A model generated the notes under the pieces. It was given only the letters and a program-made list of their open reading frames with translations. It searched no databases and was not told the origin of the DNA. Both the position numbers and the translations under genes were made by a program. Shown here in pieces: positions 16,087 through 24,139 of a DNA stretch of 56,629 bases. Source of the stretch: an uncultured virus (IMG/VR IMGVR_UViG_3300022072_000005) (Duplodnaviria; Heunggongvirae; Uroviricota; Caudoviricetes); IMG/VR virus record IMGVR_UViG_3300022072_000005. One strand, written 5' to 3'. Position 1 is the first letter of the stretch. Every line of letters begins with the position of its first letter.

Positions 16087-16101
16087 GTGTATTATTGTAT
16101 C

Positions 16102-17178
16102 ATGAATAAAACGATATTAATTACTGGTGGAGCTGGATTTATAGGTTCACACGTTGTGAATTACTTCACAGATAAATACCCTGAAACCCATTTTATTGTA
16201 ATTGACTCTTTAACATACGCATCTAATTTAAAAAATATTATGCAAGTAGAAGGTAGTTCCGTAGGGTGGAAACCAAACATGACTTTCTGGAACACTGATA
16301 TTAGAAACGTTGATTCTCTTCAAACATTATTCAAAAGTCATAACATTGATGGAATTATTCACTTAGCAGCTGAATCTCATGTTGATAATTCTATTAAAGA
16401 CCCAAATATTTTTGTGGAAACAAATGTTATTGGTACTCTTAACCTATTAAATGTTGCTAAAGAATTCTGGGGTGAAGGTTCTGAAAATAGGTTCCATCAC
16501 GTATCAACAGATGAAGTTTATGGTGATTTAACGCTTGACGAACAACCTTTCGTGGAAACGACACCTTATGACCCAAGTTCACCTTATTCAGCCTCTAAAG
16601 CAGCCTCAGACCATTTTGTAAGGGCATATGGTAGAACTTATGGGATGAATATTACAATTTCTAATTGTTCTAACAATTATGGGCCTCACCAACACGCTGA
16701 AAAGTTAATCCCAGTTGTTATTAAAAAATTAATGCATGGTGAGAAGATACCAGTTTATGGTAAGGGTGAGAATGTAAGGGATTGGTTATGGGTTGGCGAC
16801 CATGTAACGGCAATTGATGAAATATTCCATAATGGTAAAAAAGGTCACACTTATAATGTAGGTGGTGATAATGAATTAACCAATATAGAATTAATATATA
16901 AAATATGTGAATTATTCAATAATTTATATAAAAATGTTGAATCACCGATAGTAAATTTACCTGATTTTCCAATAAAGTTTGTTACAGATAGAAAAGGTCA
17001 TGATTTGAGATATGCAGTTAATTCAAATAAATTACAAACAAATCTTAATTGGAAACCTGAAAAGAAAATTTACGATGGTTTATTAGAAACAATTGAATAT
17101 TATGTTAGAACTAAAATAGTTAACGGTAAATTAGAATATGAAAATAGAACAATTAACACTGGCCGAAGTAACCCTTGA
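16102..17178 (+). CDS. rfbB: dTDP-glucose 4,6-dehydratase
   Basis: TGGAGFIGS, HLAAESHVD, HVSTDEVYG, SPYSASKA, SNNYGP, DRKGHDLRYA. Confidence 0.96.
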   Translation: MNKTILITGGAGFIGSHVVNYFTDKYPETHFIVIDSLTYASNLKNIMQVEGSSVGWKPNMTFWNTDIRNVDSLQTLFKSHNIDGIIHLAAESHVDNSIKDPNIFVETNVIGTLNLLNVAKEFWGEGSENRFHHVSTDEVYGDLTLDEQPFVETTPYDPSSPYSASKAASDHFVRAYGRTYGMNITISNCSNNYGPHQHAEKLIPVVIKKLMHGEKIPVYGKGENVRDWLWVGDHVTAIDEIFHNGKKGHTYNVGGDNELTNIELIYKICELFNNLYKNVESPIVNLPDFPIKFVTDRKGHDLRYAVNSNKLQTNLNWKPEKKIYDGLLETIEYYVRTKIVNGKLEYENRTINTGRSNP

Positions 17179-17293: not shown

Positions 17294-17312
17294 AATGTTA
17301 TTTTTATATTTG
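17281..17312 (+). promoter_or_regulatory. Bacteroidota-type sigma70 promoter of the helicase operon
   Basis: TTTG(17281)-N20-TATATTTG(17305), matching the -33/-7 consensus. Confidence 0.75.
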
Positions 17313-17342
17313 TATCATTTTAAAACAACAAAATATAATAAT

Positions 17343-18791
17343 ATGAAAAGAAATTTAGTGCTTAGAGGGTATCAAGAAGGCGCAGTAGACCACATTATGA
17401 AAACACCAGTATGTGTTTTAGCAATAGCACCCAATGGTGGTAAAACAGAAATATCTATTAAAGTTATTGATAGATATCTACAAAAAAACCCAAACGCCAA
17501 AATCTTAGTGTTACCTCACTCAACTAATGTGTTGAAAGATAATTATTATGATAGATTAGAAGAAACTAAAGTCAATTTCACATATTCAAAAGAATTTGAC
17601 CCTAATAGTAGTGTCCACATATCACTACCAAATAGTGAGAAAAAAATCACAGGTAAATATGATTTTGTAATAGTTGATGAAGCTCATGAAAATTATTTTG
17701 CAACAAGAGAACAAAGACTTATCAAGAATATAAACCCAAGTAAACAACTATTGTTAACTGGAACACCCTCTATTTTTATTAGGAAGGGTGGGTTTGATAT
17801 ATTTTTTATTGCAGCAAATCAAATTCCAGAAATATACTCAGCTAAATTAAATCTTGAATTGGTGGCATCCAACTATAAATGGTTAGGTAATTACACCAAT
17901 GACCACGAAGTTAAAAAAAGTTTCATGTTTAATGTTGATGATACACGAAAAACACTTGAAGCGGTAATGGACAAATTATTACAAAGACTTCAAACTAAAT
18001 TTACACCAGTACAATTTAATCACCCATCATGGGTAACTAAATTTAAAAATTGGGCGTTTACTTATGACCAAATTGGTAAAACAATGATTGCATGTAAAAC
18101 TATTTCACAAGCTAACACAGTTTATGATATTTTAAAAAATGAACATAATATGAATGTAGGGTTATCTCATTCATTAAATGATACTGAAAGTAGTATAATT
18201 AATGATTTTAAAGCTGGTGAGTATAATGTGTTGGTTGTTGTTAATAGAGGTCGATTAGGGTTTAGTGATGTGAATTTAATGAACCTTATTGATATGACAG
18301 GTACACATAATCCAGATATTATATTTCAAATGTTCTGTCGAGTTCTTAGAGGTACACCAGACATGACAAAATACTATATGAAGGTTACACCTAAAGAATT
18401 ACATAACATGTCATTAACACACCTCTCAGTATGCGCTGGGTTGATGTTAACAGATATTAAATTCTTAAAAATATACAACGGTAGAAATTTTAATGATATC
18501 CAAATCCCAATAATTAGAGGTAATAGACCATCACCAACTGTTGGGTCAACAAGTGGAAGTGGTGGTACAAGACCTAACCCAGTTACTAGAAATATTTTAC
18601 CAGAATTTACTTACAATGTTGTAGATACAATGAAAAGTGTGCTTCATGATGCTGAAAACATTGCCAGTATTTATAAAATGACCACTATTGGTCACGTTAA
18701 ATACACATTAGGTCATTCTAAACAAAGACCCAAATTAACATTTGAAGATATAGTAGAAAGTTGTCGAGGTAATTTATCGTTAGTGGAGTAA
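17343..18791 (+). CDS. SF2 helicase/translocase (ResIII/DEAH-like)
   Basis: LRGYQ (Q motif), APNGGKT (I), DEAH (II), LTGTP (III), FQMFCRVLR (VI); ATG 17343 lies downstream of the promoter. Confidence 0.88.
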   Translation: MKRNLVLRGYQEGAVDHIMKTPVCVLAIAPNGGKTEISIKVIDRYLQKNPNAKILVLPHSTNVLKDNYYDRLEETKVNFTYSKEFDPNSSVHISLPNSEKKITGKYDFVIVDEAHENYFATREQRLIKNINPSKQLLLTGTPSIFIRKGGFDIFFIAANQIPEIYSAKLNLELVASNYKWLGNYTNDHEVKKSFMFNVDDTRKTLEAVMDKLLQRLQTKFTPVQFNHPSWVTKFKNWAFTYDQIGKTMIACKTISQANTVYDILKNEHNMNVGLSHSLNDTESSIINDFKAGEYNVLVVVNRGRLGFSDVNLMNLIDMTGTHNPDIIFQMFCRVLRGTPDMTKYYMKVTPKELHNMSLTHLSVCAGLMLTDIKFLKIYNGRNFNDIQIPIIRGNRPSPTVGSTSGSGGTRPNPVTRNILPEFTYNVVDTMKSVLHDAENIASIYKMTTIGHVKYTLGHSKQRPKLTFEDIVESCRGNLSLVE

Positions 18792-18795
18792 TAAT

Positions 18796-19557
18796 ATGCC
18801 TGAAAAAACTCCATATAATTCAATTAAAGAATGGCGAGTTAGTAATAAAAAAGCCTATAAAGATGCTGAATCACAAGGTTATATTAATAGATTATGTGAA
18901 ATATTTGGGTGGTCTGAATATGTGAAAGAAAGGGGTAATGGGCATTGGAATCTAAATCGATGTGTTGAATCTGCAAAAGGTTTAACTAAAAAAAAATGGA
19001 GAGAAAAATTTAATTCAGCATATCAAGCAGCACATAGAAAAGGTTGGATGGGTGAATGTAATAAAGTTTTAATACATAATACTAATCCAACTGGGTTAGT
19101 TAGAAGTGAAAAAGAAAGTCATTTAATAGCATTAAAATATAGTACACTTAGAGATTTTAGAGAAAATGAACCAATTACTTATAGTCACGCATCTTATCAT
19201 GGTTGGTTACCCAAAATAACATCACACTTAATTAGGGAAACAAATAAAACTAAAACTTACACTAAAGAAGAATGTATAAATTCAGCTAAAAAATTTAAAT
19301 ATAGAAGTCAATGGGCTAAAAATGAAGTGACGTATTATAATTATGCAAGAAATAATGGTTGGTTAGATGAATGTTGTCAACATATGAATAGAAAATCTAA
19401 ATGGGAAGATTCAAATATTTGGATTGAAAAAATAACTTTCATAGATTCTAAAAAATATAAAACCGAAGAAGAATGGAAAAAAAAATCCATAGGTTCTTAT
19501 ATGACAGCTCAAAAATTAGGGATTATGGATGAATGTACTAAACATATGAAATTATGA
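18796..19557 (+). CDS. Helical repeat protein A (half repeat + 4 repeats)
   Basis: ~50-aa repeats W/Y-TKE-x-C-xx-A-KKY...EW...Y-xx-A-xx-xGWL-x-EC-xx-HM. Confidence 0.85.
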   Translation: MPEKTPYNSIKEWRVSNKKAYKDAESQGYINRLCEIFGWSEYVKERGNGHWNLNRCVESAKGLTKKKWREKFNSAYQAAHRKGWMGECNKVLIHNTNPTGLVRSEKESHLIALKYSTLRDFRENEPITYSHASYHGWLPKITSHLIRETNKTKTYTKEECINSAKKFKYRSQWAKNEVTYYNYARNNGWLDECCQHMNRKSKWEDSNIWIEKITFIDSKKYKTEEEWKKKSIGSYMTAQKLGIMDECTKHMKL

Positions 19558-20333
19558 AAGAAAAATCACCATATAAATCACTAGGTGAGTGGCGAAAAGC
19601 TAACCCAAAAGAATATAAAAAAGCTTATTCTAAAGGTTGGTTAGATGAAATATGTGGTAAGTTTAGTTGGATTAAAATTTCAAAAAAAATTAACGCTAAT
19701 GGTTATTGGAATATTAAAGAGAGGGTCTTAAATGAATCTAAAAAATATAAAACTAGAAGTGAATGGCAAAAAAATTCTTCTGGTTCATATAATTCAGCTA
19801 GAAAAAATGGTTGGTTAGACGAATGTACTGAACATATGAAAAGATTTAATAAACCAAATAAATATTGGGTTAAAAAAAAATGTATCACCGAAGCTAAAAA
19901 ATACAAAACTAGAAGTGAATGGGCTAAAAATTCTTCTGGCTCATATAATTCAGCTAAAATAAATGGTTGGTTAGATGAATGTACTAAACATATGATTGAG
20001 GTATTAAAACCGAAAGGTTATTGGACTAAAGAATTATGTTTGGTTGAAGCTAAAAAATATAAAACTAGAAATGAATGGCAAAAAAATAGCCAAACTTCAT
20101 ATAATAAATCAAGAATGAATGGTTGGTATGATGAATGTATACTTCATATGGAAATTAAAAAAATACCATCTACTTATTGGACTAAAGAATTATGTTTGGT
20201 TGAAGCTAAAAAATATAATAGTAAATCTAAATGGAAAAAAAATAATTCATCTTCTTATAACTCAGCTAGAATTAACGGTTGGTTTAATGAATGTACTAAA
20301 CATATGAAACGTGGTAGAAAAATCTCAATATAA
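19554..20333 (+). CDS. Helical repeat protein B (half repeat + 4 repeats)
   Basis: Same repeat; 156-bp DNA periodicity including an identical 45-mer at 20018 and 20174. Confidence 0.88.
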   Translation: MKEKSPYKSLGEWRKANPKEYKKAYSKGWLDEICGKFSWIKISKKINANGYWNIKERVLNESKKYKTRSEWQKNSSGSYNSARKNGWLDECTEHMKRFNKPNKYWVKKKCITEAKKYKTRSEWAKNSSGSYNSAKINGWLDECTKHMIEVLKPKGYWTKELCLVEAKKYKTRNEWQKNSQTSYNKSRMNGWYDECILHMEIKKIPSTYWTKELCLVEAKKYNSKSKWKKNNSSSYNSARINGWFNECTKHMKRGRKISI

Positions 20334-21564
20334 ATCCCTAGCCGAATGGAGAAAATCAGATTTATCATCATATAATGCTGCTAGGAAACAAGGGTTTCTA
20401 AAAGAAATATGTGATTTATTTGGTTGGAAATTAATACCAAAAAAAATCTTCTGGACCAAAGAAAAGTGTGTAGTTGAAGCTAAAAAAAATGAAACTAGGC
20501 TTGAATGGAGAAAAAATAGTTATGGTTCATATGATTCTGCTAAAAGAAAAGGTTGGTTACCTGAAATATGTGATTTATGTAATTGGGAAGAACCAAAAAA
20601 AATATATTGTAGAAAACCTAATGGTTATTGGGGTGTATTAGAGAATTGTATGATAGAAGCGAAGAAACACAACACTCTAACTAAATGGCGTAAAGCTAAT
20701 CTCCCTTCCTATGAGGGGGCAAAAAACAATGGACACCTTAATGAATGTACTAAACATATGACAATACCTAAAATAGGTGTTAAATATTGGACATTAGAGC
20801 GTTGTAAAGAGGATGCGTTAAAACATAGTGGTAGGTGGGAATGGCAAAAATCTAAAGGTGGTTACAATGTAGCGAAAACTAAAGGTTGGTTAGATATTTG
20901 TTGTGAGCATATGCCACAAAGAAAAAAATGGACATATGAAGAGGTTAAAAAAATAGCATTAAAATATGAATACGCTTCTGATTGGGAACATGCTGACCCC
21001 TTATCATACTCAATAGCATCAACTAATGGTTGGTATGAAGACTTAACCGCACATATGGGTAGGAAAATAAAAAAATTAGGTTACTGGAATAATAAGGAAC
21101 TTTGTAAAAAAATTATCGCAACATGCAATAGTAAGGAAGAAGTTAAGAAACATCACGGTGTATTTAACTCAATTAGAAGAAATGGGTGGTATAAGGAGTT
21201 AACAGCGCATTTTAAACCAGCTACTGGTTTTTGGAATAAAGAAACATTATTAGAAGAGGCCAATAAGTATGAAACAATTAAGGATTTTAAGGATAATTCA
21301 AATGGTGCATACCAAACAGCTATTAAACTTGATTGTAAGGATTACGTGACACAAAATTTAATCAGTAATTTATGCAAACCTAAAGGTTATTGGACAAAAG
21401 AACGAATATTAGCCGAATCAATAAAATATACAACTAGAACTCAATTCATTAGAGCTGAACCAAGTGCTTATCGAATTGCTAGACAGTTAGGTATAATAGA
21501 TGAAGTATGTTCACATATGATAGTAAAAAGAAAGGTAAATAATGAGAGAAAAATCCCAATATAA
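20311..21564 (+). CDS. Helical repeat protein C (half repeat + 7 repeats)
   Basis: Same repeat; GTG start supported by an N-terminus matching the paralogs. Confidence 0.85.
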   Translation: MVEKSQYKSLAEWRKSDLSSYNAARKQGFLKEICDLFGWKLIPKKIFWTKEKCVVEAKKNETRLEWRKNSYGSYDSAKRKGWLPEICDLCNWEEPKKIYCRKPNGYWGVLENCMIEAKKHNTLTKWRKANLPSYEGAKNNGHLNECTKHMTIPKIGVKYWTLERCKEDALKHSGRWEWQKSKGGYNVAKTKGWLDICCEHMPQRKKWTYEEVKKIALKYEYASDWEHADPLSYSIASTNGWYEDLTAHMGRKIKKLGYWNNKELCKKIIATCNSKEEVKKHHGVFNSIRRNGWYKELTAHFKPATGFWNKETLLEEANKYETIKDFKDNSNGAYQTAIKLDCKDYVTQNLISNLCKPKGYWTKERILAESIKYTTRTQFIRAEPSAYRIARQLGIIDEVCSHMIVKRKVNNERKIPI

Positions 21565-22141
21565 ATCCCTAGCCGAATGGAAAAAAGCTAATCCAAAAGA
21601 TTATCAACGTGCATATCATAAAGATTGGTTGGATGATATATGTGAAAGGTTTGGTTGGGAAAGATTAAATTACGATGTCAAACCTTCTGGTTATTGGACG
21701 AAAGAAAAGTGTCTTAAAGAAGCTAGAAAATTTTCATTTAAAAGTGAATGGGCTAAAAAATCAGGTGGTTCATACGATAAAGCTTGTACTAATGGTTGGT
21801 TGGATGAATGTACAGCTCATATGATTGAAATTAGAAAACCAAAGGGTTATTGGACAAAAGAAAAAATTATAGCTGAAGCTAGAAAATACAATTCAATAAT
21901 TGAATGGCAAAAAAACTCTAACGCTTCAATAAATAAAGCTAGAAAACTTAAAATTTATGGTGAATGCATAACTCATATGGTTATGAATAAAAAACCAAAT
22001 GGTTATTGGACTAAAGAAAAAATTATAGCTGAATCTAAAAAATATGGTTCAATAACTGAATGGCAAAAAAACTCATTTACTACTTATAAAAAAGCGTTAA
22101 AGTTAAACTTTATTGTTGACTGCACTAAACATATGAAATAA
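21542..22141 (+). CDS. Helical repeat protein D (half repeat + 3 repeats)
   Basis: Same repeat; 5' DNA nearly identical to that of protein C. Confidence 0.88.
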   Translation: MREKSQYKSLAEWKKANPKDYQRAYHKDWLDDICERFGWERLNYDVKPSGYWTKEKCLKEARKFSFKSEWAKKSGGSYDKACTNGWLDECTAHMIEIRKPKGYWTKEKIIAEARKYNSIIEWQKNSNASINKARKLKIYGECITHMVMNKKPNGYWTKEKIIAESKKYGSITEWQKNSFTTYKKALKLNFIVDCTKHMK

Positions 22142-22143
22142 AG

Positions 22144-22272
22144 TTAACAATCACTTCCCTTGGATAAATTATCCTCACCCCATAACGGTTGAAGATTATC
22201 CAATTTCCAACACTCCTTAAATTCAATGTCATCAACGCTCTTAAATGAGAATGATGATATTGGCTTTTTATG
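22144..22272 (-). pseudogene. 3' remnant of an HNH endonuclease
   Basis: Reads HKKPISSFSFKSVDDIEFKECWKLDNLQPLWGEDNLSKGSDC-stop; no start codon between it and the capsid terminator. Confidence 0.75.
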
Positions 22273-22291
22273 GTTCTTTATTATAAATAAA

Positions 22292-22318
22292 AAAAGCCTT
22301 GCAAATTGCAAGGCTTTT
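22292..22318. terminator. Bidirectional terminator after the major capsid gene
   Basis: AAAAGCCTTGCAA-A-TTGCAAGGCTTTT between convergent operons. Confidence 0.85.
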
Positions 22319-22342: not shown

Positions 22343-24139
22343 TTATCTTAATTCGTTTGCGTTGAATGTTTGTAATCCATCTACTCTAACAGCCCCGTAA
22401 AAGCGGTTGTTAACAACTTTTTTAGCATAACGTGTCATTATACCTTTCACTGGCGCAAAGTTGAACGGGTTGTACATTGTAGGCGTAAGTTGCATTGGCA
22501 CGTAAGGTGCGTAGATGTAACCTGTATCTAATAAAGATTTACCTTTATGTCCCATAATCAATGACCAAGATGGAGCATAAGGGTCACGGTACACTTGGTA
22601 ACGTCCACTTAAAGAACCGATTTTCTCGATACCCATGTTGTATTGGTCTTGCTCAGGAGATGCATCAGATACGTGGAAGTATTCTAAATCGTCAAACACA
22701 GCAGAGATTTCAGAAGAAACCACGATGAAGTTTGCACCACCTCTAAGAGTTGATTTATGTATTTGTGCTGAAATTTGGTTAACTTTAGTAATTAAAGTTT
22801 GATTCCAGTCTTTTTGAGTGTAAGCATTAGCAGCTAGAGAAGCTTTTCTCCATCCGTTCCAATCCCATCTCAATTGCCATGCAGCAGCACTTCTTAAATC
22901 TCTTAAGATTTCTCTATCGATTTCAGCAGCAACTTGCTCAGAAAGCATTGCAGTTAATTCAGCTTCAGCATCAATGTTGTGAAATGCACTAACATCTTGC
23001 GCTAATTCTGGAGACCATGTAGCTCTTAATTTACGTTCTTCAACGGAAACAACAACCTCATCTAATTTGAAAGATACTTCTCCCATTTCAGTTTCAAGTT
23101 CTAATGTAGCATATTCTGCCCATGATACTGATAAATCAGCTGAAGTGAAACCAGAAGCTAATACTAAGTCAGCACCTACATAACCATCGTATGTTGAAGT
23201 ACCAGCTGCATCAACTGGGTGAGTCATATCTAATTCTAAAAATATAACACCAGCATCATCACAAACATCGTTGTAATCTACGATACCTCTACCATATTTT
23301 TGTGTTACTAATCTAAATGGTACAACACCACCGTCAGCAACAATTACGTTACCATCAGCATCAGTTAATGCTTCACCATTCATAACAACTTTTAAAGAAG
23401 CTAAGAAAGATTCAGTATCCATTGGGTTACCATCTGGTCCACTTAATCTACCTTTATTGATTGCGCTAAATCCACTTACTTGTAAGATTGCGTTCCTTAA
23501 AGAACCATCTGTAGCAGTTGGAAGTGCAGCAAAATCAGCAGCAGCAGCAAAAGTACCGTCTGCGCTTAATGTTACTAAAGCACCAGAACCAGCGATAATA
23601 GAAATTTCACCTTTAGACGAATCAAATAATCCATCATTATAATAAATATCATAAAGATTTTTAGATAAGTATTTAGTTGGAGAATAAGAAGGGTCAACAC
23701 CTTTTACAATTGGAAGTCCGTCAGAACCCATTGAAGTATGTGCAGAAAATTGTGGTCCATTTTTATGTGGGTCACCATATGCATCACTTGCAGAATCATA
23801 CCTAGCAGAAGTTTGTGGTACGAAGAAGAACAATTTACCAATTGGCATGTTCATAGCTTGTACAGATACAATATCATTTGCTAATAATTTTGAGAATACT
23901 CTTCTTACGATTGGAAATACAACCGTTTCAAAAGAACCTGAGCTAGAAGCGTCAGTAGACTCATTTAATAAGTGAGAAGCTTCGTTCTCATATAATTGAG
24001 CGATATTTTCTTTAACGTGTCCTTTAAGACCGTCTAAGAAACCTAAACTATCCCATTTATTGATAGTGTTCTCTCTTACTTGTTTCATGTGGTTAAGTCC
24101 GATATTACCAACTTGACCTGAATTTAAAAAATTTGACAT
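22343..24139 (-). CDS. Major capsid protein (T4 gp23-like)
   Basis: PIVRRVF..L.A.DIVSVQAM, RKLRATWSPELAQD...DAEAEL..EIDREI, GYIYAPYVP, GIMTRYA. Confidence 0.96.
   Translation of the reverse strand: MSNFLNSGQVGNIGLNHMKQVRENTINKWDSLGFLDGLKGHVKENIAQLYENEASHLLNESTDASSSGSFETVVFPIVRRVFSKLLANDIVSVQAMNMPIGKLFFFVPQTSARYDSASDAYGDPHKNGPQFSAHTSMGSDGLPIVKGVDPSYSPTKYLSKNLYDIYYNDGLFDSSKGEISIIAGSGALVTLSADGTFAAAADFAALPTATDGSLRNAILQVSGFSAINKGRLSGPDGNPMDTESFLASLKVVMNGEALTDADGNVIVADGGVVPFRLVTQKYGRGIVDYNDVCDDAGVIFLELDMTHPVDAAGTSTYDGYVGADLVLASGFTSADLSVSWAEYATLELETEMGEVSFKLDEVVVSVEERKLRATWSPELAQDVSAFHNIDAEAELTAMLSEQVAAEIDREILRDLRSAAAWQLRWDWNGWRKASLAANAYTQKDWNQTLITKVNQISAQIHKSTLRGGANFIVVSSEISAVFDDLEYFHVSDASPEQDQYNMGIEKIGSLSGRYQVYRDPYAPSWSLIMGHKGKSLLDTGYIYAPYVPMQLTPTMYNPFNFAPVKGIMTRYAKKVVNNRFYGAVRVDGLQTFNANELR

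What the first reader, a model, noticed from the sequence alone, without database searches (positions are those of the whole stretch)
18796..22141. Hypervariable positions in a fixed helical repeat: possible modular DNA-reading code
Seen: across 18 full and 4 half repeats the scaffold residues (W, K-Y, E-W, Y-xx-A, GW, C-xx-HM) are largely constant. The residues around the conserved Tyr change from unit to unit: SGSYNSAR, QTSYNKSR, YGSYDSAK, LPSYEGAK, NGAYQTAI, PSAYRIAR, GGSYDKAC, VTYYNYAR, PITYSHAS. These positions are rich in N, Q, D, S, R and K, the usual base-contacting residues, and the proteins are strongly basic. Inference: each unit is a small HTH-like module and the array reads DNA unit by unit, as zinc-finger or TALE arrays do. 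That would make it potentially programmable.
Basis: partly seen in the sequence, partly recalled or inferred. Interest (0 to 1): 0.78.

Follow-up and report, generated by a model that had tools for sequence, protein, structure and literature searches.

The report
Phage helicase with interchangeable repeat subunits
A large freshwater phage encodes four proteins built from an uncharacterised 44-residue helical repeat that likely binds DNA, and each begins with a half-repeat predicted to dock on the last helix of the neighbouring helicase, so one motor would have several interchangeable targeting subunits; a TALE-like base code is possible but not shown.

Summary
The array is real: four genes (A-D, 18796-22141) hold 18 full 44-residue units and 4 N-terminal half units. 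They lie directly behind an SF2 helicase gene in a T4-like phage.

The half unit ('cap') lacks helix 1, and split helicases end in a helix-1-like segment (119 of 120 tails). In one natural protein (P0195) tail and cap are joined into a whole unit. A capped gene follows the helicase in 19 of 24 non-redundant loci. The same cap heads four other DNA-associated domain families (HA, DUF723, INT_rpt, Hc1). Uncapped arrays are fused to GIY-YIG and other nucleases, or to the helicase. Complex prediction gave weak support (0.42, best control 0.00).

Best reading: interchangeable DNA-targeting subunits for one ATP-driven motor. DNA binding is inferred, not measured.

The proposed code around the Tyr is not shown. 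Those columns vary, but no more than other surface columns. They are not enriched in N/Q/D/S/R/K relative to them and show no special constraint or positive selection. No HTH fold match was found.

My literature searches found no description. This scan reported the same arrangement earlier on another genome (e1-5365157, e1-5365160).

The parts
17295..18791 (+). SF2 helicase/translocase of the ResIII/RadD type, 498 aa (homologs suggest the start is the ATG at 17343). Walker A at 17436, DEAH at 17676, motif III at 17757, motif VI at 18336. No nuclease or methyltransferase domain.
   Evidence: Pfam ResIII and Helicase_C; AlphaFold pLDDT 85, pTM 0.84; best fold match RadD 6jde, Z 24.1, rmsd 3.7, 324 aligned; motif places
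18735..18770 (+). Helicase C-terminal helix (residues 481-492): orphan helix 1 of a repeat unit, the predicted docking site for the caps
   Evidence: Helix 483-490 in the model. Tails of split helicases beat their shuffles on the helix-1 profile in 119 of 120; this copy scores weakly, 1.2 bits. Tail and cap are fused in P0195
18796..19557 (+). Array protein A: cap (18796-18906) + 4 units
   Evidence: mosaic against the ortholog in L003
19554..20333 (+). Array protein B: cap (19554-19664) + 4 units, units 73-83% identical in DNA for five of six pairs
20311..21564 (+). Array protein C: GTG start, cap (20311-20421) + 7 units
   Evidence: database protein P0086 has the same start
21542..22141 (+). 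Array protein D: cap (21542-21652) + 3 units
   Evidence: its 3 units are 82% identical to the last 3 of P0045
22292..22318 (-). 12-pair hairpin between the cassette and the convergent major capsid gene; terminator-like
   Evidence: consensus match only

Best explanation
The four genes encode arrays of a 44-residue four-helix unit that likely binds double-stranded DNA, and each array is predicted to dock on the neighbouring SF2 helicase by completing a split unit, so the helicase would use A, B, C or D as alternative targeting subunits. Shown in sequence: every array starts with a half unit lacking helix 1; the helicase ends with a helix-1-like segment; the genes overlap or abut in one run; relatives carry 1-5 capped genes, or have the array fused to the helicase. 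Predicted: cap-helicase binding (weak complex support). Inferred: the non-acidic face (helices 2-3, with column 17 and columns 25-33) contacts DNA. Units on 8-residue Lys-Pro-x-Gly-type linkers add up to a long site, each unit giving loose, context-dependent preference rather than a one-residue-one-base cipher. Inferred and least certain: the loaded motor translocates on dsDNA using ATP and, having no nuclease, strips or remodels proteins or junctions at the chosen sites. The arrays are replaced between close relatives, so the targets are more likely foreign and changing (host chromosome, rival phage or mobile element) than a fixed site of the phage. My odds by step: binds nucleic acid 0.85; cap docks on the helicase 0.7; sequence-selective 0.6; portable per-unit code 0.3.
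For: Linkage: of 82 loci fetched with the helicase, 27 are non-redundant split helicases, 24 of them with >=300 nt downstream. The next gene is capped in 19 of 24, and 21 of 24 hold at least one capped gene; 55 of 60 array or cap genes in the 27 loci are capped (one locus is a copy of this window). Exclusion: top 120 of 1,190 homologs of B give cap 78, GIY-YIG 25, both 0. 0 of 13 loci with fused or long helicases hold a capped gene. Split unit: tails score 5.9 bits on the helix-1 profile against -13.1 shuffled, and not on helices 2-4. P0195 joins tail and cap directly into one HMM-scored unit; P0156 joins them by a linker; 8 of 120 helicase homologs carry units in-chain. Fused and split forms alternate on the helicase tree (at least 5 changes forced by starred branches; quick tree). 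Same cap, other cargo: DUF723 x6, INT_rpt x7, HA x6, HA x3 + Hc1, and Hc1 alone. Nuclease fusions: 92 of 145 new representatives carry a GIY-YIG-like insert by motif; Pfam GIY-YIG, HNH and REase-like hits. Complex: ipSAE 0.42 against best control 0.00, weak support; runs agree in >=91% of contacts, partner pLDDT >=78. That mark was reached by 116 of 157 solved and 2 of 215 mismatched pairs, but at <=0.60 by only 18 of 157 solved pairs and by both mismatches. Turnover: centre of A is 95-98% identical in DNA to a gene in L003 whose helicase is 80.5% identical; relatives at 79-85% have different arrays.
Against: No binding to DNA or to the helicase was measured, and no target site was found. The complex pass is weak, gave no interface, and concerns halves of a split unit, a class that passes easily; I found no solved structure of the family to explain the pass by memory. 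This window's own tail matches helix 1 poorly (1.2 bits). The cap profile used was built from these loci; the first detection used an independent repeat HMM. Only 5 of the 13 fused or long loci have >1 kb downstream, so that zero is weak. 3 of 24 split loci have no capped gene (one, L048, is followed by an HA array without a scored cap). Hc1 as cargo points to general rather than sequence-specific DNA binding. No specificity signature at columns 25/26/29/30. 17 of the 120 homologs have neither cap nor GIY-YIG motif.
Confidence: 0.55

Rival explanations
1. The arrays dock on the helicase but bind DNA with little sequence choice: processivity or nucleoid-type anchors. The variable columns are just relaxed surface positions.
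For: Tyr-flank columns behave like other surface columns in ortholog constraint and pN. They are mostly small residues. The same cap carries histone-H1-like Hc1. The proteins are strongly basic.
Against: One non-specific anchor would suffice, yet 17 of 24 split loci keep 2-5 different capped genes and exchange blocks of units. The same unit serves free-standing GIY-YIG proteins of homing-endonuclease build. Column 17 is variable between units but held between orthologs (0.31, 95% 0.14-0.57).
Confidence: 0.2
2. One reading: free-standing TALE- or zinc-finger-like readers (for example transcription regulators), independent of the helicase, with a base code written around the conserved Tyr.
For: Constant scaffold (pN 0.019) with variable columns 25, 29, 30, 32. 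By helical spacing these lie on the side of helix 3 away from core positions 27/28/31 (inference). Beads-on-a-string model. Non-acidic helices 2-3.
Against: Caps are tied to split helicases and absent from nuclease fusions. There is no specificity signature in those columns. Diversity is continuous (up to 3.7 bits), not a few letter pairs. No HTH match (inconclusive).
Confidence: 0.1
3. The units bind RNA or a protein rather than DNA, for example bringing the helicase to a host complex.
For: No binding data exist. SF2 fold matches include RNA helicases. Small helical repeats are often protein scaffolds (general knowledge).
Against: Fusion partners are DNA nucleases. The interchangeable cargo families are those linked to DNA binding in the passages read (10.1101/2023.03.23.533998; 10.1101/2024.11.13.623437). 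The best helicase match is the DNA-repair helicase RadD.
Confidence: 0.08
4. The arrays are nuclease-less relics of homing endonuclease genes that accumulate beside the helicase, or decoys against such nucleases, with no docking.
For: The unit is most often seen with GIY-YIG. Homing-endonuclease-like genes are common near these loci. A few loci hold fragments.
Against: The scaffold is under purifying selection. A distinct conserved cap (Y7, Y21, W39 in >=90% of 62) never occurs with GIY-YIG (0 of 120). The helicase tail helix is conserved, and in-frame fusions exist.
Confidence: 0.07

Closest known systems
SF2 helicases with tandem HA domains (Pfam PF03457; Streptomyces TtrA)
   Same: ResIII-type SF2 motor plus a string of small helical domains. 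HA arrays themselves occur as cargo here (L027, L060, L048). HA in TtrA and its possible DNA binding: passages of 10.1101/2024.11.13.623437.
   Different: The unit here is not HA (no Pfam hit; HHalign probability 0.3%). The array is mostly a separate gene joined through a split unit, with several alternatives per helicase.
Repeated DNA-binding domains of phage homing endonucleases (CapR/DUF723/DUF4379 on T5orf172; NUMOD on GIY-YIG)
   Same: Beads-on-a-string modules fused to several nuclease types and shuffled by recombination (passages of 10.1101/2023.03.23.533998).
   Different: All-helical unit without the Zn-finger pattern. In A-D there is no nuclease and the partner is a helicase. In the fusions the GIY-YIG domain often sits in the middle of the array.
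TALE/STAR and C2H2 zinc-finger arrays
   Same: Fixed scaffold, variable surface columns, short Lys-Pro-x-Gly linker reminiscent of the zinc-finger linker (recalled).
   Different: No sequence or fold match. No small set of code residues detected. Units are not packed into a superhelix in the model (pTM 0.42). The families described in the abstract and sections 46, 50 and 52 of PMC11417379 are different; its supplement could not be read.
Type I / Type ISP restriction-modification enzymes (HsdR + HsdS; LlaBIII)
   Same: Related SF2 translocase fold (LlaBIII Z 18.5, HsdR fragment Z 16.5) and the idea of exchangeable specificity parts. Distant relatives of the helicase carry an array and a C-terminal Methyltransf_8 domain (L071, L073, L078).
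   Different: No nuclease and no methyltransferase in this cassette. No Methyltransf_8 in the held third of the genome. Specificity parts are repeat arrays, not target-recognition domains.
PHROG 20046
   Same: All four proteins match it (E 1e-41 to 1e-66).
   Different: It is annotated 'unknown function'; no paper found for it.

Membership tests
TALE-like / programmable repeat readers | Sequence or fold similarity to TALE or zinc-finger units | tested here: not met
   No Pfam, NCBIfam or PDB sequence match; the model shows separate four-helix beads
TALE-like / programmable repeat readers | A few variable columns that are held constant between orthologs (specificity signature) | tested here: inconclusive
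   Columns 25/26/29/30 ratio 0.92 (0.77-1.08); column 17 alone 0.31 (0.14-0.57); 26 disjoint pairs, 148 unit pairs, orthology judged by identity only
TALE-like / programmable repeat readers | Unit swaps move DNA specificity predictably | not testable with these tools
   Needs SELEX, microarray or one-hybrid data
Helix-turn-helix domain | Structural match to a tri-helical HTH with a 3-4 residue turn | tested here: inconclusive
   Best Z 3.2 (3d36_C, rmsd 3.3, 40 aligned), none at Z>=5 among 48,161 chains. Helices 2-3 are joined by one residue. The five-bead model was searched, not a single unit
HA domain (PF03457), INT_rpt (PF14882), DUF723 (PF05265) | Profile match of the unit | tested here: not met
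   No Pfam hit; HHalign probability 0.3-0.4% against small alignments of 13, 8 and 6 units
GIY-YIG homing endonuclease | Nuclease domain in the protein | tested here: not met
   A-D consist only of cap and units; relatives with GIY-YIG exist
SF2 helicase (ResIII/RadD-like), upstream gene | Two RecA domains with motifs I, II, III and VI | tested here: met
SF2 helicase (ResIII/RadD-like), upstream gene | ATP-dependent translocation or unwinding | not testable with these tools
   Biochemistry needed
Type I / ISP restriction-modification | Nuclease domain and methyltransferase with the motor | tested here: not met
   Neither is in the cassette. PADLOC gives only partial helicase-core hits. The genome is about 33% complete, so unlinked genes are not excluded
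Pfam PF26058 | Profile match | not testable with these tools
   Precomputed on 7 of 120 homologs including B, but the family is not in the held library; its name and scope are unknown to me

The most novel reading that the evidence does not exclude
A new programmable DNA-targeting system. A 44-residue unit reads a few base pairs through helices 2-3 and can be strung in any order. A natural split-unit connector lets any DNA-binding array, from at least five domain families, be attached to an ATP-driven motor; in nature the same unit is also fused to nucleases. The family is large (5,368 representatives at 50% identity), so it would supply a ready training set for the code.
Probability: 0.25. 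Interest if true: 0.93.

Novelty: new variant of a known kind. Interest (0 to 1): 0.72.

Why it matters
Helicases with tails of small repeated domains are known as an architecture but barely understood. Here the tail is detached and multiplied, and one conserved half-repeat connects at least five domain families to the same motor. That would be an undescribed way to retarget an enzyme, and it can be tested with two small proteins. The unit itself is a large uncharacterised family that also accompanies GIY-YIG, HNH and REase-like nucleases. Some members lie in cultured Vibrio, Rhizobium and Burkholderia phages (25 records), so cleavage-site mapping could show directly whether a per-unit code exists. 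If it does, it is a compact new scaffold for programmable DNA binding. If not, the split-unit connector remains of interest.

Tried and rejected
Family and structure look-ups for the unit: Pfam, NCBIfam and PDB sequence searches gave nothing credible. Foldseek against PDB gave 0 matches at E<=0.001. The wide structural search gave best Z 3.2. The viral library returned three strong matches: a BcepSauron protein (a phage that also matches by sequence) and two unnamed ones. The ESM Atlas returned unnamed clusters and one GIY-YIG-rich cluster. A single unit was not folded and searched alone. A Foldseek PDB search of the helicase model was not run.

Code tests: no special ortholog constraint at columns 25/26/29/30. 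The wider flank set scored 0.82 (0.73-0.92), but it includes column 27, which covaries with core W20. No positive selection (23 unit pairs, some redundant). Top covarying pairs are mainly core or capping pairs, none among the Tyr-flank variable columns.

Active diversification within the population: no joints or indels inside the cassette in four partial contig sets; contigs drop rare variants, so this shows little. No RNA holder listed. Promoter scan at chance level, 39 against 38.

Distribution: no match to the helicase in 50,697 GenBank phage records; 1 small contig among the bacterial and archaeal genomes by exact-pattern scan. No further array or cap in the held 118.6 kb of this genome. 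Neighbours of the cassette differ between loci, with no recurring nuclease or methyltransferase (76 proteins scanned, 73 of them from 18 loci). No target site could be proposed. Host not determined; nearest cultured capsid matches are 39-42% over about half the protein.

Literature: nine full-text searches found no description of this unit or of the split arrangement. The library lacks most subscription journals. The supplement of PMC11417379, with its 100 candidates, could not be read and may include a family member.
Full report
Setting. The window is the second half of a 118.6-kb linear virus record estimated 33% complete. It has T4-like head genes (Gp23 at 22343-24139 on the minus strand). 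Runs that hold the cassette are mainly freshwater, aquatic and sediment metagenomes. The four repeat genes follow, on the same strand and with overlaps or gaps of a few bases, a 498-aa ORF (17295-18791). That ORF is an intact SF2 helicase of the ResIII/RadD type.

Observation. An HMM iterated on 120 homologs gives a 44-column unit and recovers exactly 18 full and 4 half units, one half unit at the start of each gene. Scaffold residues are present in 10-16 of 18 units, pI is 9.5-9.9, and all quoted octamers exist. AlphaFold on B (39-row alignment) gives four helices per unit at pLDDT about 95, three helices for the half unit, less certain linkers and pTM 0.42, that is, independent beads. No solved fold matches the model, so 'HTH-like' stays open; helices 2 and 3 are joined by one residue. 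Only PHROG 20046 (unknown function) matches. A newer Pfam entry, PF26058, is precomputed on 7 of 120 homologs including B, but I could not look it up.

Is there a code at the Tyr? Variability is real but not special. Over 2,577 units the most variable columns are 29, 21, 25, 32, 18, 8, 42, 6 and 30, spread over all four helices (similar). The Tyr flank is dominated by small residues (0.54) and holds fewer N/Q/D/S/R/K (0.44) than other exposed columns (0.52-0.68). A specificity code should leave columns that differ between units but stay fixed between orthologs. For columns 25/26/29/30 the normalised substitution ratio against other variable columns was 0.99 (0.84-1.15; 14 of 25 pairs kept as disjoint) and 0.92 (0.77-1.08; 26 of 58). 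Adding columns 27 and 32 gave 0.82 (0.73-0.92), but 27 is coupled to the core. Codon counts on 23 close unit pairs give pN 0.15 for the flank, 0.17-0.18 for other surfaces, 0.019 for the scaffold and pS 0.30: purifying selection on the scaffold, relaxed surfaces, no positive selection. These tests are small and cannot exclude a code.

Why DNA binding is likely. Among the top 120 of 1,190 homologs of B, 25 carry a GIY-YIG motif, mostly in mid-array. A profile search of 1.84 billion representatives found 5,368 at E<=0.001 (the cap profile also hits full units). Of the 145 new ones among the best 150, 92 have a GIY-YIG-like insert by motif, 29 another insert, 12 are pure arrays and 12 are capped. 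Pfam confirms GIY-YIG, HNH, DUF4379 and three further ResIII helicases, and gives a sub-threshold REase hit. A small module shared by unrelated nucleases is the pattern of homing-endonuclease DNA-binding domains (passages of 10.1101/2023.03.23.533998).

The half units. They are not decayed ends but a conserved cap (Y7, Y21, W39 in >=90% of 62) that lacks helix 1. Helicase homologs end in a segment that matches the helix-1 profile. Of 175 helicase hits, 147 had the anchor motif and 120 were scored as split; 119 of 120 beat their shuffles (5.9 against -13.1 bits), with no such signal for helices 2-4. This window's tail is a weak example (1.2 bits). P0195 carries tail and cap in one chain as a whole unit, P0156 with a linker, and six more of 120 homologs continue into arrays. 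In 82 loci fetched with the helicase, after collapsing near-duplicates and dropping 5 partial and 11 truncated helicases, 24 split loci have downstream DNA. The next gene is capped in 19, and 21 hold 1-5 capped genes; 0 of 13 fused or long-helicase loci hold one, though only 5 of these have over 1 kb downstream. Cap and GIY-YIG never coincide (78, 25, 0 of 120). The same cap heads DUF723, INT_rpt, HA and Hc1 domains, which show no profile similarity to the unit where tested. Fused and split helicases alternate on a quick tree of 70 rows, so fission or fusion recurred; the direction is not settled. Folding helicase residues 182-498 with the cap of B gave weak support: 0.42 (0.34-0.45) against 0.00 for three controls, contacts agreeing >=91%, partner pLDDT >=78, no interface reported. 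By the tool's calibration such a pass is more often wrong than right unless the guess was likely beforehand, and halves of split units pass easily. Here the genomic evidence made it likely beforehand.

Turnover. Phages whose helicases are 79-85% identical in DNA carry different arrays. The centre of A is 95-98% identical to the second array gene of L003, whose helicase is 80.5% identical. D's three units match the last three of P0045 at 82%. Arrays are therefore exchanged in blocks. Within this phage the cassette looks stable across samples. Flanking genes differ between loci, with no recurring nuclease or methyltransferase. Distant helicase relatives do carry a different array plus a methyltransferase domain.

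Mechanism. I commit to a motor with alternative targeting subunits: cap plus tail helix rebuild one unit, the remaining units bind a long DNA site, and the nuclease-less motor is loaded there and translocates, likely acting on foreign or changing DNA (0.55 overall). Shown: anatomy, linkage, fusions, cargo exchange. Predicted: docking. Inferred: DNA binding, sequence choice, and the biological role. Rivals are non-specific anchors (0.2), free-standing code readers (0.1), RNA or protein binding (0.08) and relics (0.07).

Prior knowledge. Nine full-text searches found no description; subscription journals are largely missing. Read: PMC11417379 (abstract, sections 46, 50, 52, term search; supplement unreadable, and it may bear on novelty), 10.1101/2023.03.23.533998 (passages) and 10.1101/2024.11.13.623437 (passages); other papers only as search listings. 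TALE, zinc-finger, NUMOD and Type I R-M comparisons rest on my own knowledge. The scan's earlier notes on another genome (e1-5365157, e1-5365160) and a first-reader note on this stretch (e1-8229560) reach the same reading. I had recorded mine before looking (against 41), and these notes are not counted as evidence.

Verdict. Observation confirmed; interpretation partly supported; the more surprising feature is the split-unit link to the helicase. Novelty: a new variant of helicase-plus-repeat-array proteins, with an uncharacterised unit and an undescribed connector. Interest 0.72.

Noticed in passing
L071:5980-8811, L073:242-3292, L078:1-3099: Distant relatives of the helicase are single 940-1030-aa chains: helicase + a different Trp/Tyr-rich repeat array + C-terminal Methyltransf_8 domain. 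Possibly an array-guided modifying motor.
   Followed up: partly
L031:10989-11321, L060:1729-2745, L027:3807-4181: Cap fused to histone-H1-like Hc1 (Pfam E 2e-11), to HA x3 + Hc1, and to a similar-looking coiled region without a Pfam hit.
   Followed up: partly
repeat column 17 (first residue of helix 2), all units: Switches among R/K/I/L/V between units yet is the most constrained variable column between orthologs (0.31): a better candidate specificity position than the Tyr flank. Columns 10 and 24 covary strongly.
   Followed up: partly
L039:7534-9057: Capped protein with 10 nearly identical units of about 40 residues and almost no linker; it would suit a tandem-repeat target or a different packing.
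   Followed up: no
window 22144-22311 (-): 55-codon ORF behind the capsid gene that looks to me (recalled motif) like the C-terminal end of an HNH-type endonuclease; no PHROG or Pfam hit. Possibly a relic.
   Followed up: partly
L083 (MT612989.1) and other Vibrio, Rhizobium and Burkholderia phage records: Cultured phages carry the unit, up to 12 matching places per genome, annotated as hypothetical proteins; none matched the helicase.
   Followed up: partly
P0260, P0308: Arrays interrupted by two nuclease-like domains in one chain (two GIY-YIG-like by eye; two REase-like).
   Followed up: no
L041:5363-6013, L046:2998-4661: A serine-recombinase-like gene between helicase and capped gene in L041, and transposase genes upstream of the helicase in L046.
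   Followed up: no
window 16087-17178: Nucleotide-sugar dehydratase/epimerase gene upstream of the cassette; also upstream in L003 and L018, with different genes in between.
   Followed up: no
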